IMG/VR virus record: IMGVR_UViG_2531839585_000005
Span: 1-7,397 of that record
Source: a virus
Lineage: Duplodnaviria; Heunggongvirae; Uroviricota; Caudoviricetes
Length of the DNA: 7,397 bases
Reading direction: 5' to 3' (one strand)
In this document: positions 1 to 7,397 of the stretch, piece after piece
How the letters are laid out: each line of letters starts with the position of its first letter
Position numbering within the stretch: position 1 is the stretch's first letter
Notes under the pieces: model-generated
Database searches by the model: none
What the model was told of the DNA's origin: nothing
Seen by the model: only the letters and a program-made list of their open reading frames with translations
Program-made: the position numbers and the translations under genes

Positions 1-151
1 CTGGATGACATCCGGGCGGGACGCATTGAGCGCGCCATTTCACGCTGTCGCAATATCTGGGCGTCCCTGCCGGGTGCCGGTTACGGTCAGCGTGAGCATT
101 CACTGGAAAAACTGGTCACCGTCTGGCGTACCGCGGGGCGTACCGGCTTAA
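1..151 (+). CDS. K: Phage endolysin, C-terminal part (lambda R / P2 K-type lysozyme); 5' end lies outside the window, 3' end uncertain
   Basis: Frame +1 from position 1 reads ...DDIRAGRIERAISRCRNIWASLPGAGYGQREHSLEKLVTVWRTAG..., matching the conserved C-terminal motif of lambda R-type endolysins (NIWASLPGAGYGQ.EH). Frame +1 has no stop until 229-231 and runs into the lysA ATG at 166. TAA codons sit in frame +2 at 149-151 and 158-160, so a 1-bp indel near 133-140 has probably displaced the true stop. Not in the ORF track because the start is outside the window. Confidence 0.65.
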   Translation, partial: WMTSGRDALSAPFHAVAISGRPCRVPVTVSVSIHWKNWSPSGVPRGVPA

Positions 152-165
152 ACGGAGTAAACACC

Positions 166-589
166 ATGAAGAAATTATCCCTTTCACTGATGCTGAACGT
201 GTCGCTGGCGCTGTGCTGGCACTGTCCCTGATTTACCCGCAGAGCGTGGCCGTCAGTTTTGTCGCCACCTGGGCGATTCTGGGACGGTTATCTGTGTGGT
301 TGCCGGTGGTGTCGGCGTGTATGCCACGGAGTATGTACTTGAACGCTACGGGCGGGAGCTGCCACCGGAATCGCTGGCCGTGAAGATTGTCACGTCGCTG
401 TTTTTGCAGCCGGTGCCGTGGCGCAGGCGGTCAGTGGCTCTGGTAGTGATGGTGGCGACGTTTATCTCGCTGGTCGCTGCCGGGTGGATTTTTACCGCGC
501 TGATTTATCTCGTGGCATCGGTGTTCTTCCGGCTGATACGTACGGCCTGCTGTCAGCGTTTTGAGGGGCGGGAACCATGTCAAAGCTGA
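166..589 (+). pseudogene. lysA: lysA-like lysis-timing membrane protein, frame-disrupted as sequenced (needs all three + frames)
   Basis: ATG at 166 sits 7-8 nt downstream of GGAG and opens MKKLSLSLMLNVSLAL in frame +1, which stops at 229-231. The continuation ...VLALSLIYPQSVAVSFVATWAILG is in frame +3 (about 213-283). The remainder, VICVVAGGVGVYATEYVLERYGRELPPESLAVKIVTSLFLQPVPWRRRSVALVVMVATFISLVAAGWIFTALIYLVASVFF..., is frame +2 and corresponds to track ORF 296-589. Hydrophobic segments fit a small membrane protein. The stop overlaps the lysB start. Position after the endolysin matches the P2 order K-lysA-lysB-lysC. Confidence 0.6.
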
Positions 590-1147: not shown

Positions 1148-1571
1148 TGCCGTCACGGTGCTGAAAACACCGAATGCTGCGGATATTCGTGGATACGGGA
1201 GTATTGCCTCCACGCTGGCGGCGTCGTTGTCATTCGAAAAGCGTTACACGCTCAATGTCATTGTGACCGACTTTACCGGTGATTTTGACCTGCTCATCGT
1301 GCCGGTGCTGGCGTGGCTGCGGGTAAATCAGCCCGACATCATGACCACCGACGCAGGTCAGAAAAAGGGCTTCACGTTTTATGCAGACATCAACAATGAC
1401 AGCAGCTTTGATATCAGCATCAGCCTGATGCTGACCGAGCGAACGCTGGTCAGTGAGGTGGACGGCGCGCTGCATGTGAAGAATATCCCGGAACCTCCGC
1501 CGCCGGAGCCGGTCACCCGCCCGATGGAGCTGTATATCAATGGCGAACTCGTGAGTAAGTGGGATGAATGA
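1110..1571 (+). CDS. R: Tail completion protein R
   Basis: Intact 153-codon ORF MLKPDSLRRALTDAVTVLK...FEKRYTLNVIVTDFTGDFDLLIVPVLAWL...PEPPPPEPVTRPMELYINGELVSKWDE, recognised as P2 gpR-family. Overlaps the lysC 3' end. Its stop is fused to the S start (ATGAATGA). Confidence 0.85.
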   Translation: MLKPDSLRRALTDAVTVLKTPNAADIRGYGSIASTLAASLSFEKRYTLNVIVTDFTGDFDLLIVPVLAWLRVNQPDIMTTDAGQKKGFTFYADINNDSSFDISISLMLTERTLVSEVDGALHVKNIPEPPPPEPVTRPMELYINGELVSKWDE

Positions 1572-2082: not shown

Positions 2083-2710
2083 ATGAACACTCTCGCAAAT
2101 ATCCAGGAACTCGCGCGCGCACTGCGCAACATGATCCGCACCGGCCTTGTCGTCGAAACCAACCTTAAAGCCGGTCGCTGCCGTGTGCAGACCGGCGGCA
2201 TGTGCACCGACTGGCTTCAGTGGCTGACTCGTGCCGGGCGTTCGCGCACTGGTGGGCACCTTCCGTGGGGGACAGGTGCTGATTCTGGCCGTGGGCGGTG
2301 AACTCGACACGGCGTTCGTTCTGCCGGGGATTTATTCCGGTGATAACCCCGCGCCGTCTGCGTCGGCGGATGCCCTGCATATCCGTTTCCCTGACGGGGC
2401 GGTGATTGAGTATGAACCCGAAACCAGCGCACTCACGGTAAGCGGAATTAAAACGGCCAGCGTGACGGCTTCTGATTCTGTTACTGCCACGGTGCCGGTG
2501 GTCACGGTGAAAGCATCAACCCGCGTACCCTGGACACACCGGAGGTGGTTGCACCAACAGGCTGATTACGGCACGCTGGAAGTGCAGAAGGGCGGGACGA
2601 TGCGCGGCAACATTGAACACACCGGCGGTGAACTCTCATCAAACGGTAAGGTACTGCATACCCATAAACACCCCGGCGACAGCGGCGGCACAACCGGGAG
2701 CCCTCTATGA
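2083..2710 (+). pseudogene. V: Baseplate spike / central hub protein V, frame-disrupted as sequenced
   Basis: Frame +1 ORF 2083-2301 gives MNTLANIQELARALRNMIRTGLVVETNLKAGRCRVQTGGMCTDWLQWLTRAGRSRT..., the gpV N-terminus. The continuation WWAPSVG is in frame +3, then QVLILAVGGELDTAFVLPGIYSGDNPAPSASADALHIRFPDGAVIEYEPETSALTVSGIKTASVTASDSVTATVPVVTVKASTRV is in frame +2 (track ORF 2231-2710). A second cluster at about 2525-2575 passes through frames +1 (TLDTPEVV) and +3 (CTNRLIT) before returning to +2 (GTLEVQKGGTMRGNIEHTGGELSSNGKVLHTHKHPGDSGGTTGSPL). The stop overlaps the W start (ATGA). Confidence 0.8.
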
Positions 2711-3058: not shown

Positions 3059-3949
3059 ATGCCGATTATCGACCTGAACCAGCTACCTGCACCGGATGTG
3101 GTCGAGGAGCTGGACTTTGAAACCATTCTTGCTGAACGCAAGGCGACACTGATTTCTCTTTACCCGGAAGACCAGCAGGAGGCGGTCGCCCGTACCCTGA
3201 CGCTGGAATCTGAGCCTCTCGCCAAACTGCTGGAGGAAAATGCTTATCGTGAGCTTATCTGGCGTCAGCGTGTGAATGAGGCCGCACGGGCGGTGATGCT
3301 GGCCTGTGCCGCCGGTAATGACCTTGATGTGATTGGTGCCAATTACAACACCACGCGCCTGACTATCACCCCGGCAGATGATTCGACCATTCCGCCGACA
3401 CCGGCAGTGATGGAATCTGACACCGATTATCGTCTGCGTATTCAGCAGGCGTTTGAGGCTTAAGCGTCGCCGGGTCGGTGGGGCTATCAGTATCATGGTC
3501 GCAGTGCCGACGGGCGTGTCGCGGATATTCTGTACCAGTCCGTCTCCGGCCTGCGTCACCATCTCGTGCTGTCACGTGAAAATAACGGTGTGCATCCGAA
3601 GACTGCTGGCGGGTGCGTAACGCCCTTAATGGCGAGGACGTCAGGCCGGTGGCCGACCGCGTGACCGTGCAGTCTGCCGCCATGTTGAATACCAGATAAA
3701 CGCCACGCTTTACCTTTACCCTGGTCCCGAAAGGAACCCATCCGCGCGCCGCCGTGAAAAAACTGGAAGCTAATCACGGCACAGCACCGGCTGGGGCGGA
3801 CATCCGTCTGTCTGCCATTTATGCCGCTTTGCATGTGGAAGGGTGCAGCGTGTCGAACTGGCTGCACCCTGGCCGACATCGTGCTCAACAGTACGCAGGC
3901 GTCTTTCTGTACCGAATACCGCGTCGTGACCGGAGGCTCGGATGAGTGA
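3059..3949 (+). pseudogene. J: Baseplate protein J, intact for the first ~134 codons, then heavily frame-disrupted
   Basis: Frame +2 ORF 3059-3463 gives MPIIDLNQLPAPDVVEELDFETILAERKATLISLYPEDQQEAVARTLTLESEPLAKLLEENAYRELIWRQRVNEAARAVMLACAAGNDLDVIGANYNTTRLTITPADDSTIPPTPAVMESDTDYRLRIQQAFE and then hits TAA. Downstream, recognisable gpJ segments appear piecemeal across all three + frames: YQYHGRSADGRVADI, TSPSPACVTIS, VLSRENNGV, VRNALNGEDVRPVADRVTVQSAA, VEYQINATLYLYPGPE, VKKLEA, ITAQHRLGR, DIRLSAIYAALHVEG, LADIVLNSTQASFCTEYRVVTGGSDE. The final segment is in frame with a TGA at 3947-3949 that overlaps the I start. Full-length gpJ is about 300 aa as I recall. Confidence 0.8.
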
Positions 3950-4472
3950 TTCGCGACTGCTGCCGACCGGCTCATCACCGCTTGAAGTCGCCGCCGCAAA
4001 AGCCTGTGCGGAAATTGAAAAAACGCCGGTCAGTATTCGTGAGCTGTGGAACCCGGATACCTGTCCGGCAAATCTGCTGCCGTGGCTGGCGTGGGCGTTT
4101 TCGGTCGACAGGTGGGATGAAAAGTGGCCGGAAGCGACAAAACGCGCCGTTATCCGCGATGCCTATTTCATCCACTGTCATAAAGGCACAATAGGTGCAA
4201 TCCGGCGTGTGGTGGAGCCGCTCGGCTATCTCATCAACGTGACGGAGTGGTGGGAAAACAGTGACCCGCCCGGCACCTTCCGGCTTGATATTGGTGTACT
4301 GGAAAGCGGCATCACAGAGGCAATGTATCAGGAAATGGAACGGCTGATTGCTGATGCCAAACCTGCAAGCCGTCACCTTATTGGCCTGAACATTACCCGG
4401 GACATTCCCGGCTACCTGTTCGCCGGTGGTGTGGCTTACGACGGCGATGTAATTACGGTTTATCCCGGATAA
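3942..4472 (+). CDS. I: Baseplate protein I
   Basis: Intact 176-codon ORF MSDSRLLPTGSSPLEVAAAKACAEIEKTPVSIRELWNPDTCPANLLPWLAWAFSVDRWDEKWPEATKRAVIRDAYFIHCHKGTIGAIRRVVEPLGYLINVTEWWENSDPPGTFRLDIGVLESG..., recognised as P2 gpI-family with the expected length. Start overlaps the J 3' end. Confidence 0.9.
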   Translation: MSDSRLLPTGSSPLEVAAAKACAEIEKTPVSIRELWNPDTCPANLLPWLAWAFSVDRWDEKWPEATKRAVIRDAYFIHCHKGTIGAIRRVVEPLGYLINVTEWWENSDPPGTFRLDIGVLESGITEAMYQEMERLIADAKPASRHLIGLNITRDIPGYLFAGGVAYDGDVITVYPG

Positions 4473-4482
4473 GTGAGGAATA

Positions 4483-6648
4483 ATGAGCACAAAATTCAGA
4501 ACCGTTATCACCACTGCCGGTGCAGCAAAGCTGGCAGCGGCAACCGCGCCGGGAGGGCGGAAGGTCAACATTACCACGATGGCCGTCGGGGATGGCGGTG
4601 GTAAATTGCCTGTCCCGGATGCCGGACAGACCGGGCTTATCCACGAAGTCTGGCGACATGCGCTGAACAAAATCAGCCAGGACAAACGAAACAGTAATTA
4701 TATTATCGCAGAGCTGGTTATTCCGCCGGAGGTGGGCGGTTTCTGGATGCGTGAACTTGGCCTGTACGATGATGCGGGAACTAATTGCCGTGGCGAACAT
4801 GGCCGAAAGTTATAAGCCAGCCTTGCCGAAGGCTCAGGGCGTTCGCAGACCTGCGCATGGTCATCATCGTCAGCAGTGTGGCCTCAGTGGGCTGACCATT
4901 GACACCACAACGGTGATGGCACGCAGGATTACGTTGATGACAAAATTGCAGACATGAACAGTCACGACGTCACCCGACGCCTCGCTGACCGCAAAAGGTT
5001 TTACTCAGTTAAGCATGCGACCAACAGCACGTCTGAAACACTGGCCGCAACGCCGAAAGCGGTAAAGGCCGCGTATGACTTGCTAACGGGAAATAACGCC
5101 AGGAGCCACCAAGCGCGAAAAGGCCTTGTCCAGCTCAGTAGGCCACCAACAGCGATTCTGAAACGCTTGCGGCAACGCCAAAGGCGGTTAAGACAGCGTA
5201 TGACCTTGCTAACGGGAAATACACTGCACAGGAGCCACCACGCGCGAAAGGTCTTGTCAGCTCAGTAGCGCCACCAACAGGATTCTGAAACGCTGGCTGC
5301 AACATCAAAAGCGGTGAAGTCTGCCTATGACAATGCTGAAAAACGTCTTCAGAAAGATCAGAACGGTGCGGATATTCCGGGAAAGGATACCTTCACGAAA
5401 AATATCGGTGCCTGTCGTGCTTATAGCGGCGCTTTGAGCACTGAAGCCGGAAACTGGACAACCGCTCAGTTTATTGAATGGCTGGATTCCCGTGGTGCAT
5501 TTAATCATCCGTACTGGATGTGCAAAGGCTCCTGGTCATATGCAAATAACAAAATCATTACGGATACCGGATGTGGTGATATCCACCTGGCTGGTTGTGT
5601 CGTCGAGGTCATGGGAACTAAATCTGCAATCACTATTCGAGTGACCACGCCGACAACATCAAGTGGTGGCGGTACAACCAGCGCGCAATTCACTTACATA
5701 AATCATGGGGACGGCTACTCCCCCGGCTGGCGTCGTGACTGGAATCGTCAGGGCGACGCAATGACCGGAACGATTAATCAGGATGGCGGAAGCCAGAATG
5801 CCTATATGTCTACGGCCTTATGTTCAGGCACCAGAGGCGGCAAAAAATATCTCAGAAAGTTTCGTGGTGGAGAAGGAGACACTATCTGGCATGAAACAGT
5901 ACAGGGCGGGGTAATTCGCTGGGCGACAGGAAACTATGACGCTCAGGAAGAATTATCACTCAGCTCCGCTTATGGTCTCCGTTCAAGAGGTGAGATTACA
6001 TCACTCAGTGCTAATGGTCTGCGCATTGCTTATGGCAATTATGGATTCTTTATCAGGAATGATGGCGGCAGCACATATTTAATGCTGACGGCCTCTGGCG
6101 ATAAATTAGGCACATAGAACAATTTAAGACCGCTGACTATAAATAACGCCAAGGGCGCAGTATCAATGGGGCATGGCCTGAATGTTACTGGTGATATTGT
6201 CTCAAGTACCAAAGTACGTGCCGGTAGCGGGAAAAAATTCACGGTCAGCAGCAGTAATACATCCACGAAGGAAGCCGCATTCAATTTGTGGGGAAACTCA
6301 AGTCGTCCGGTGGTGGCTGAATTAGGTGATGATGCAGGCTGGCATTTTTACAGTCAGAGAAATACAGATAACAGCATCACGTTTGCTGTTAACGGTCAGG
6401 TATCACCATCTAACTATAGTAATTTTGATTCACGCTATGTCCGGGATATCCGGCTTGGTGGTGCTGCCACATACAAACCTGCGAACAATGGCATGACATG
6501 GACACATCAGGCACCGTCCGGGTGTGTATATTCCGGCATTATTGTTCAGGATACCGGCTCAAACTCTGCCGATAACATTGGTGGCATATATTACAGACCG
6601 GTGCAGAAATACATTAACGGGACTTGGTATAACGTGGCGCAGGTATAA
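4483..6648 (+). pseudogene. H: Tail fibre protein H (mosaic). 5' third is frame-disrupted, one in-frame TAG at 6115-6117, otherwise continuous
   Basis: ATG at 4483 preceded by GAGG. Frame +1 reads MSTKFRTVITTAGAAKLAAATAPGGRKVNITTMAVGDGGGKLPVPDAGQTGLIHEVWRHALNKISQDKRNSNYIIAELVIPPEVGGFWMRELGLYDDAGT, the gpH N-terminus. From about 4778 the continuation (LIAVANMAESYKPAL, LAEGSGR, RMVIIVSSVASV, LTIDTTTVMA, then the ATNSTSETLAATPKAVK repeats) is scattered over three frames up to about 5280. From 5281 to 6648 a single frame +1 runs cleanly apart from the TAG at 6115-6117 (track ORFs 5314-6117 and 6166-6648). The C-terminus ...NFDSRYVRDIRLG...RPVQKYINGTWYNVAQV is the conserved P2-H-type tail-fibre terminus. 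Confidence 0.85.
5006..5337 (+). repeat. Three imperfect direct tandem repeats of ~126 bp inside H, encoding a repeated tail-fibre motif
   Basis: Copy 1 about 5006-5130, copy 2 about 5131-5258, copy 3 (partial, diverging) about 5259-5337. Each encodes a variant of QLSSATNS(T/D)SETLAAT(P/S)KAVK(A/T/S)AYDLANGKYTAQEATTARKGLV. The copies differ by substitutions and 1-bp indels. Confidence 0.7.
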
Positions 6649-6651
6649 TTT

Positions 6652-7179
6652 ATGCAGCATTTGATAAATATAACGGCAGGTAATCCAAAAACGGTTGAAC
6701 AATATCAATTGACAAAGGACTTTGATGTTGTCTGGTTTTTTTCAGAAGATGGTAAGAACTGGTACGAAGAACAAAAGTATTTTGCTGATGACACGATAAA
6801 AATAGCGTACGACAAAGATAATATCATCCGCTATGTGGAAAAGGATGTGACAGCTATCAGACCGGATGGATTAAGTGTGGTTGAAGTGGCGGATATTACT
6901 GCTAACCGACGGGCGGATATTTCAGGGGGCTGGATGTTTAAGGACGGCAAAGTGATTAAACGCATTTATACGGCAGATGAATTGCGGCGGCAGGCAGAAA
7001 TTCGGAAAGTCAGACTTCTTGCAGATGCTGAATCCGTGATTTTGCCGCTGGAGCGCGCTGTCAGGCTGAACATGGCAACAGATGAGGAGCGTAGCCGACT
7101 GGAAGCATGGGAGCGTTACAGCGTTCTGGTCAGTCGTGTGGATCCTGCAAATCCTGAATGGCCGGAAATGCCGCAATAA
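6652..7179 (+). CDS. G: Tail fibre assembly protein G (Tfa-type chaperone)
   Basis: Intact 175-codon ORF starting 3 nt after the H stop: [44 protein letters not shown]...[42 protein letters not shown]. The C-terminal half is recognised as the P2 gpG/Tfa family. Position immediately 3' of the tail-fibre gene fits. Confidence 0.9.
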
Positions 7180-7213
7180 GTTGTATGAGTTCTGGTGTGA
7201 GCTTACACATCTA

Positions 7214-7255
7214 TGGCACAGAGTAAAGCCTAATCTGACAGTTCGCTCTGTGCCA
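7214..7255. repeat. Perfect 10-bp inverted repeat (TGGCACAGAG / CTCTGTGCCA) separated by 22 nt, in the A+T-rich region after G
   Basis: Positions 7214-7223 and 7246-7255 are exact reverse complements. No T-run follows, so it is not a canonical intrinsic terminator. It could be a protein-binding site, an RNA stem-loop at the operon 3' end, or the junction of inserted DNA. Confidence 0.5.
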
Positions 7256-7397
7256 AGAGCGGACGTTACTACTACTCGACCTAAAGTAAAGCAATTGTAC
7301 TCATTAAATAGTGGTAATTGGGTCTGGTGCTTAATCGAACGAAATCTCATGTTAGGCGAAAAAAACGTCTGAAAAATCGATTAACACATACACCTGT

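What the first reader, a model, noticed from the sequence alone, without database searches (positions are those of the whole stretch)
4770..5290. 5' third of tail-fibre gene H is frame-scrambled across a tandem-repeat region
From about 4778 the gpH reading frame is lost and the recognisable peptide segments are spread over three frames until about 5280, after which about 1.37 kb reads cleanly. The scrambled block coincides with three ~126-bp tandem repeats, where both polymerase slippage and assembly errors are common. The track ORFs 4751-4957 and 4954-5268 are fragments of H, not separate genes.
Basis: partly seen in the sequence, partly recalled or inferred. Interest (0 to 1): 0.55.

Follow-up and report, generated by a model that had tools for sequence, protein, structure and literature searches.

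The report
Assembly artefact scrambling prophage tail-fibre gene
The broken reading frame at the start of this P2-type prophage tail-fibre gene is very probably an assembly artefact: reads from two ~97%-identical prophage copies were merged into one consensus, which dropped a base at nearly every position where the copies differ.

Summary
The frame scramble is in the deposited sequence. Gene H (4483-6648) loses its frame at 4781/4782 and changes frame 20 times. It regains frame 1 at 5281, because 21 single bases in total are missing.

The damage is almost certainly not in the DNA, and the tandem repeat did not cause it.
- The window is a whole 7.4-kb draft contig (APZI01000619.1).
- Against intact E. 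coli relatives it has 57 missing bases, no true insertions and almost no substitutions inside the damaged blocks. There are six such blocks, five of them outside any repeat.
- Three sibling draft assemblies lack bases at the same positions, but over different stretches.
- The missing bases sit mainly on third codon positions (51/85, p=4e-7).
- They coincide with sites that differ between P2-like alleles (31 exact hits against 2.7 expected).
- Downstream, at 6081-6182, the window alternates 15 times between two alleles that the siblings carry in pure form. This creates a chimeric in-frame TAG at 6115-6117, so the "clean 1.37 kb" is not clean.

The ~127-bp repeats are ordinary 132-bp (44-aa) tail-fibre repeat units (PF03406). 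The window has one unit fewer than its siblings.

Verdict: a consensus of two collapsed alleles. It is not a biological feature and is of low interest.

The parts
4483..6648 (+). P2-type tail-fibre gene H as deposited, disrupted by the consensus artefact
   Evidence: 97% identical to intact annotated tail-fibre genes in E. coli. Pfam hits: PF12571 (N-terminal domain), PF03406 repeats and PF21446. Gene order is I-H-G.
4483..4781 (+). Undamaged N-terminal part of H, read in frame 1
   Evidence: Frame map. PF12571 hit on ORF 4483-4815, E=4.6e-37.
4781..5280 (+). Frame-scrambled block: 19 small deletion events (20 bases) plus a 133-base gap after 5141, giving 20 frame changes
   Evidence: The deletions lie outside homopolymers. 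14 of 20 are on codon position 3. 7 of 8 in the non-repeat part lie on polymorphic columns.
5020..5331 (+). Tandem array of tail-fibre repeat units: 2.5 copies, apparent period 127 because bases are missing
   Evidence: TRF result. Intact relatives have period 132 with 0% indels, 3.5 copies in L002 and 2.5 in L001. Pfam PF03406 gives 4 and 3 stretches respectively.
5141..5142 (+). Junction where one 132-bp repeat unit, plus one further base, is missing relative to L002 and the three sibling assemblies
   Evidence: The compared stretch is 796-798 bp in the siblings and 675 bp in the window.
5281..6114 (+). H in frame 1 again, with no frameshift
   Evidence: The indel pair at 5934/5936 is an alignment effect of a substitution cluster, not a frameshift.
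6081..6182 (+). Stretch that is a base-by-base chimera of two H alleles, including a chimeric in-frame stop TAG at 6115-6117
   Evidence: At the 32 sites that distinguish hapA (L004, same as L002) from hapC (L003, same as L005), the window switches allele 15 times. TAG is a mix of TGG (hapC) and TAT (hapA).
6652..7179 (+). Tail-fibre assembly gene G, intact
   Evidence: ORF of 175 aa. PF02413 Caudo_TAP.
3942..4472 (+). Baseplate gene I, intact
   Evidence: ORF of 176 aa. PF09684.
3455..3868 (+). Second large deletion block (17 events, 18 bases) that breaks baseplate gene J
   Evidence: 12 of 18 sites are on codon position 3, or 17 of 18 if homopolymer shifts are allowed. The extent of the block differs in each sibling assembly.
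2228..2568 (+). Two small deletion blocks (2228-2272 and 2526-2568) that break spike gene V
   Evidence: V is intact (211 aa) in siblings L003 and L004.
1168..1194 (+). Deletion block with a net loss of 6 bases, in the lysC/R overlap
   Evidence: 11 of 14 deletion sites in this region across the four assemblies lie within 1 bp of a proxy SNP.
134..282 (+). Deletion block of 4 bases, at the end of the lysozyme gene and in the lysA-like gene
7256..7397 (+). Flank specific to the A-type prophage; the contig stops 142 bp after the two prophage types diverge
   Evidence: Local alignments of L001 and L002. Siblings L004 and L005 continue into the B-type flank instead.

Best explanation
The sequenced culture holds two P2-like tail modules about 97% identical. 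One is close to the prophage of NZ_CP025916 (A), the other close to that of NZ_CP027373 (B), and there is a further H allele (hapC) in the distal part of the gene. The assembler merged their reads into one short contig.

Where the two alleles differ at an isolated site, neither base had clear majority support, so the gap-tolerant consensus dropped the column. This left a 1-base deletion at each difference. Where differences are dense (6081-6182), the consensus instead picked bases from either allele column by column.

Both real H genes are expected to be intact tail-fibre genes. Each would have an N-terminal baseplate-attachment domain, 2.5 or 3.5 in-frame 44-aa repeats, a trimerisation domain and a receptor-binding end, followed by chaperone gene G.

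Shown here: the deletion pattern, its agreement with allelic differences, and the chimerism. Inferred: the exact consensus algorithm and sequencing platform, and whether the two copies sit in one genome or in a mixed culture.
For: 1. Against L002 the window has 57 missing bases apart from the repeat unit and no true insertion. There are 0-1 substitutions per 100 bp inside the blocks, and most deletions are outside homopolymers.
2. The window is an entire 7397-bp contig. Three sibling NCBI draft assemblies lack bases at identical positions, but the block boundaries differ. For example, the J block covers ref 3681-3939, 3709-4204, 3774-4204 or 3850-4105, and V is intact in two siblings.
3. Siblings run into two different downstream flanks. 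One is the L002 type; the other matches L001 at 99.4%.
4. Of 88 deletion sites, 31 fall exactly on an L001-vs-L002 SNP and 46 within 1 bp. The expected values are 2.7 and 7.5, and the maxima over 2000 permutations are 10 and 17.
5. 51 of 85 sites are on codon position 3 (p=4e-7), or 67 of 85 allowing for homopolymer ambiguity.
6. In the non-repeat part of H, 7 of 8 deleted sites coincide with the 23 of 259 columns that vary among seven relatives (p=1.3e-7). Phage P2 itself carries the alternative bases at ref 5442, 5445, 5448 and 5454.
7. There are 15 allele switches over 32 sites at 6081-6182, and the stop codon there is chimeric.
8. The two proxies have 3.5 and 2.5 repeat units, which matches the unit-count difference between the siblings and the window.
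9. Restoring the missing bases gives a continuous H frame as far as checked, 4483-5933.
10. General background: consensus indels from noisy reads cause frameshift errors, and mixing haplotypes causes allele switches (PMC8081667).
Against: - No reads or coverage data could be examined, so doubled read depth and intact single-molecule haplotypes are predicted, not seen.
- The true second allele of this strain was not recovered. With proxies, only about half of the deletion sites fall on a known SNP.
- One H deletion (ref 5262) matches no polymorphism in the panel.
- The 5' end of the contig does not coincide with a divergence point between the proxies.
- It is not established why isolated differences became deletions rather than a choice of one base. 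The platform and assembler are unknown, and no paper citing these accessions was found.
Confidence: 0.9

Rival explanations
1. Mis-assembly or polymerase slippage confined to the 132-bp tandem repeats scrambled the frame.
For: The 3' half of the block overlaps the repeat array. The window has one unit fewer than its siblings.
Against: - The block starts 240 bp upstream of the array.
- Five other blocks with the same signature lie in genes without repeats.
- A unit is 44 codons, so a change in copy number keeps the frame.
- Slippage does not explain the third-codon-position and SNP-site preference.
Confidence: 0.04
2. The four assemblies were completed or gap-filled against a common faulty template sequence that already carried the deletions.
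For: The deletion positions are identical but their extents vary across four assemblies whose accession numbers are adjacent.
Against: - This does not by itself explain why the deletions sit on allelic SNP sites and third codon positions.
- It does not explain the base-by-base allele chimera unique to the window.
- The template would itself have to be a collapsed consensus.
Confidence: 0.04
3. The deletions are real: H, J and V are pseudogenes of a decaying prophage, patched to different extents in different isolates by gene conversion from a second, intact prophage.
For: The deletions are shared by four assemblies. Cryptic P2-like prophages do decay (my own knowledge).
Against: - Real decay would give substitutions, insertions and homopolymer-biased indels, not 57 deletions with none of these.
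- Frameshifting deletions have no reason to prefer third codon positions or sites that vary between functional alleles.
- 15 allele switches in 100 bp, with a chimeric stop codon, is not a plausible recombination product.
Confidence: 0.02

Closest known systems
Tail-fibre protein gpH of phage P2 and P2-like (Peduovirus) prophages of E. coli
   Same: Same gene order I-H-G. Same domains: PF12571 N-terminal domain, PF03406 44-aa repeats and PF21446. The 5' part is 94-97% identical in DNA to P2, fiAA91-ss and many E. coli prophages.
   Different: As deposited, the gene has 20 frame changes, one repeat unit fewer than its siblings and a chimeric stop codon. These differences belong to the record, not to the gene family.
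Collapsed-repeat or mixed-haplotype consensus errors in draft assemblies
   Same: Errors fall at the sites where two copies differ, alleles switch within the consensus, the contig is short, and the extent of damage varies between assemblies of related samples. The general phenomenon of consensus indels causing frameshifts and of haplotype switches is described in PMC8081667.
   Different: Here nearly every isolated allelic difference became a 1-base deletion rather than a choice of base. I attribute this to a gap-tolerant consensus step; that is inference from my own knowledge of graph-based consensus callers and was not tested.
Phase-variable genes switched by slipped-strand mispairing in tandem repeats
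   Same: A tandem repeat lies inside a surface-recognition gene, and copy number varies between alleles.
   Different: The unit is 132 bp, or 44 codons, so copy-number changes keep the frame. The frame loss comes from scattered single-base gaps, many of them outside the repeat.

Membership tests
P2 gpH-type tail fibre | N-terminal tail-collar fibre domain (PF12571) | tested here: met
   ORF 4483-4815 hits PF12571 at E=4.6e-37. It is truncated at profile position 99 of 150 by the first frameshift.
P2 gpH-type tail fibre | In-frame 44-aa tail-fibre repeats (PF03406) | tested here: inconclusive
   The repeats are present. They are out of frame in the window as deposited and in frame with 0% indels in intact relatives.
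P2 gpH-type tail fibre | Position between baseplate gene I and chaperone gene G | tested here: met
   I is at 3942-4472, H at 4483-6648 and G at 6652-7179.
P2 gpH-type tail fibre | One continuous open reading frame | tested here: not met
   There are 20 frame changes and an in-frame TAG in the deposited sequence. The frame is continuous over 4483-5933 after the missing bases are restored. The failure is attributed to the record, not to the gene.
Collapsed two-copy consensus artefact | Errors located at sites that differ between the copies | tested here: met
   31 of 88 deletion sites fall exactly on proxy SNPs against 2.7 expected. Codon position 3 accounts for 51 of 85 sites, p=4e-7. 7 of 8 sites fall on polymorphic columns, p=1.3e-7.
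Collapsed two-copy consensus artefact | Consensus switches between alleles at short range | tested here: met
   15 switches across 32 sites, and a chimeric TAG.
Collapsed two-copy consensus artefact | Two copies demonstrably present in the sample set | tested here: met
   The sibling contigs carry two different downstream flanks and two pure H alleles. This was shown across the sibling assemblies, not within the window's own assembly.
Collapsed two-copy consensus artefact | About doubled read depth over the contig, with reads that separate into two intact haplotypes | not testable with these tools
   No read data were available.
Decaying prophage pseudogene | Mixed spectrum of substitutions, insertions and deletions with no codon-position preference | tested here: not met
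   Deletions only, no true insertion, almost no substitutions inside the blocks, and a strong third-position bias.
Slipped-strand phase variation | Repeat unit whose copy-number change shifts the reading frame | tested here: not met
   The unit is 132 bp, or 44 codons.

The most novel reading that the evidence does not exclude
The single-base gaps are real DNA: a lineage of E. coli carries a tail module in which each mismatch between two resident P2-like prophages was converted into a 1-base deletion. An aberrant repair of heteroduplex formed during recombination between the prophages could do this, and different isolates would be patched to different extents.
Probability: 0.02. Interest if true: 0.6.

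Novelty: not a real feature. Interest (0 to 1): 0.06.

Why it matters
The value is practical rather than biological. Contig APZI01000619.1 and its sibling contigs should not be used to call pseudogenes, score prophage intactness or type tail fibres and host range. At least four genes here (lysA-like, V, J, H) are falsely broken, and the stop codon in H exists in neither allele.

The pattern also gives a diagnostic that needs no reads. Runs of single-base deletions that avoid homopolymers, carry no accompanying substitutions, sit on third codon positions and coincide with known allelic differences indicate a collapsed consensus of two near-identical elements. That check could flag similar false pseudogenes in other draft genomes.

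Tried and rejected
1. I looked for the window in complete E. coli genomes and in phage records. No identical copy exists; the best matches are 97% identical and intact.
2. I tried to locate the true second allele.
   - The search with the B-type flank recovered L001-like prophages, but not in the genomes that hold the A type.
   - The search with the hapC stretch led to a more distant phage (L007) that is no use as a proxy for the 5' part of H. The second allele is therefore represented only by proxies.
3. tblastn of intact H against the window ran straight through the scrambled part in one frame and did not show the frame changes. I replaced it with a frame map taken from the nucleotide alignment.
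4. My first patched translation broke after 5933, because I restored a base at an alignment-only indel pair (5934/5936). That is not a real frameshift.
5. I tested whether the contig ends sit at points where the two prophage types diverge. This holds roughly for the 3' end (142 bp past the fork) but not for the 5' end.
6. Two literature searches for the assembly accessions found nothing, so the sequencing platform and assembler remain unknown.
7. Homopolymer-type sequencing error was rejected. Most deleted bases are in runs of length 1.

Full report
**What the window is.** The window is the tail module of a P2-like (Peduovirus) prophage. The genes in order are the end of the lysozyme gene, a lysA-like gene, lysB/lysC, R, S, V, W, J, I, H and G. 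It is 97% identical over its full length to intact prophages in complete E. coli genomes. An exact-protein look-up showed that the window is an entire draft contig, APZI01000619.1 (7397 bp) of GCA_000356865.2. Three other NCBI draft assemblies encode the same truncated N-terminal H fragment: L003 (AQCD01000118), L004 (AQBY01000088) and L005 (AQCC01000103).

**Checking the observation.**
- I aligned the window globally to the intact relative L002 (NZ_CP025916). H keeps frame 1 from 4483 to 4781.
- It then changes frame 20 times and returns to frame 1 at 5281.
- The cause is 19 small deletion events (20 bases), plus a 133-base gap after 5141. That gap is one 132-bp repeat unit plus one base.
- The 21 single bases missing match the 1201 vs 1222 bases seen against L001, which has the same number of repeat units.
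- Putting the bases back gives a continuous frame from 4483 as far as 5933. After 5933 that patched translation breaks through my own error at the 5934/5936 indel pair. The unpatched frame-1 reading of 5314-6648 has only the TAG described below.
- ORFs 4751-4957 and 4954-5268 read true H codons over only about a third of their length.

Three details in the finding are wrong.
- The repeat array is 5020-5331, with 2.5 copies of apparent period 127. The scramble therefore starts 240 bp upstream of it.
- The 1.37 kb after 5280 is not clean, because there is an in-frame TAG at 6115-6117.
- H is not the only damaged gene.

**The pattern is window-wide and is not sequencing noise.**
- Against L002 the window lacks 57 bases apart from the repeat unit. 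It has no genuine insertion.
- The gaps form six blocks: 134-282, 1168-1194, 2228-2272, 2526-2568, 3455-3868 (gene J) and 4781-5280.
- Inside the blocks there are almost no substitutions.
- Most deleted bases are not in homopolymers. This rules out the usual homopolymer errors.
- It also argues against real decay, which would bring substitutions and insertions as well.

**Sibling assemblies.** The three siblings lack bases at exactly the same reference positions, but over different stretches.
- The J block spans ref 3681-3939 in L005, 3709-4204 in L003, 3774-4204 in the window and 3850-4105 in L004.
- V is intact in L003 and L004 and broken in the window.
- The last five H deletions are absent from L003.
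- L003 and the window continue into the L002-type flank downstream of G. L004 and L005 continue into a different flank that matches L001 (NZ_CP027373) at 99.4%.

Two P2-like modules, A (L002-like) and B (L001-like), are therefore present in this group of samples and are joined differently in each assembly.

**The deleted positions are sites where alleles differ.**
- Of the 88 deletion sites seen in the four assemblies, 31 fall exactly on an L001-vs-L002 SNP and 46 fall within 1 bp. The expected values are 2.7 and 7.5, and the maxima in 2000 permutations are 10 and 17.
- Independently of any proxy, 51 of 85 coding sites are third codon positions (p=4e-7). The figure is 67 of 85 if a deletion may be shifted within a homopolymer. 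In the H block it is 14 of 20, or 16 of 20 with shifting.
- In the non-repeat part of H, 7 of 8 deleted positions coincide with the 23 of 259 columns that vary among seven relatives (p=1.3e-7).
- Phage P2 itself carries alternative bases at ref 5442, 5445, 5448 and 5454, all deleted in the window.

Random errors or real frameshift mutations have no reason to pick synonymous, polymorphic sites. A consensus built from two functional alleles does.

**Direct sign of a mixed consensus.** Between 6081 and 6182, two alleles differ at 32 sites. L004 and L002 carry one allele (hapA), and L003 and L005 carry the other (hapC). The window alternates between them with 15 switches. Its stop codon TAG is a blend of TGG (hapC) and TAT (hapA). 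No plausible recombination event gives this pattern. A column-by-column vote on mixed reads does.

**The tandem repeat.** In intact relatives the unit is 132 bp with no indels, and there are 3.5 copies in L002 and 2.5 in L001. Each unit encodes one 44-aa PF03406 tail-fibre repeat. Copy-number change therefore keeps the frame. The repeat cannot be the source of the frame loss. The window has 2.5 units and its siblings have 3.5, in line with the two alleles.

**Most likely mechanism.** Reads from two ~97%-identical tail modules were collapsed into one contig. At isolated differences neither base had clear majority support, and the consensus dropped the column. At dense differences it picked bases from either allele. 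That a graph-based or gap-tolerant consensus behaves this way is my inference from general knowledge. The platform and assembler could not be found. Background on consensus indels causing frameshifts, and on haplotype switches when reads of two haplotypes are mixed, is in PMC8081667. The contig ends 142 bp after A and B diverge downstream of G. This fits a break in the assembly graph. The 5' end shows no such fork between the proxies.

**Limits.**
- No reads or coverage could be inspected.
- The strain's real second allele is known only through proxies, so about half the deletion sites have no matching proxy SNP.
- Whether the two copies are in one genome or in a mixed culture is open.

**Comparison and verdict.** The gene is an ordinary member of the P2 gpH tail-fibre family, and the damage belongs to the record. 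The finding is therefore not a biological feature. It is useful only as a warning about these contigs and as a read-free signature of a collapsed consensus. Confidence in the artefact explanation is about 0.9.

Noticed in passing
window 6115-6117 (within 6081-6182): There is an in-frame TAG in the supposedly clean part of H. It is a blend of TGG and TAT from two alleles that sibling assemblies carry in pure form. The window switches allele 15 times over 32 sites.
   Followed up: yes
window 134-282, 1168-1194, 2228-2272, 2526-2568, 3455-3868: Five further blocks of single-base deletions break the lysA-like gene, V and J, and locally garble the lysC/R overlap (net loss of 6 bases, so the frame is kept). 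They have the same signature as the H block and contain no tandem repeats.
   Followed up: yes
window 6652-7397: Gene G carries the B-proxy allele at 18 consecutive variable sites, yet the contig continues into the A-type flank (7256-7397). The contig is therefore chimeric at a larger scale too, or the strain's A copy has a B-like G.
   Followed up: partly
L008 (Yersinia phage VB-YPM-4, ON146439.1) 184-735 and 732-1463: In this deposited phage genome the H gene is annotated as two overlapping hypothetical proteins. That suggests a frameshift or a repeat-region error in that record as well.
   Followed up: no
downstream of G: L001 8302-10020, L002 7669-8186, and hits: The space between G and the tail-sheath gene holds different cargo in different prophages. 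Examples are unrelated hypothetical proteins, a Shedu nuclease family protein, a DUF6615 protein, and an acetyltransferase with an HTH protein. I believe this is the known variable hotspot of P2-like phages (from my own knowledge).
   Followed up: no
L001 2289-3074 (minus strand): The L001 prophage has an extra 786-bp hypothetical gene on the opposite strand between S and V. It is absent from the window and from L002.
   Followed up: no
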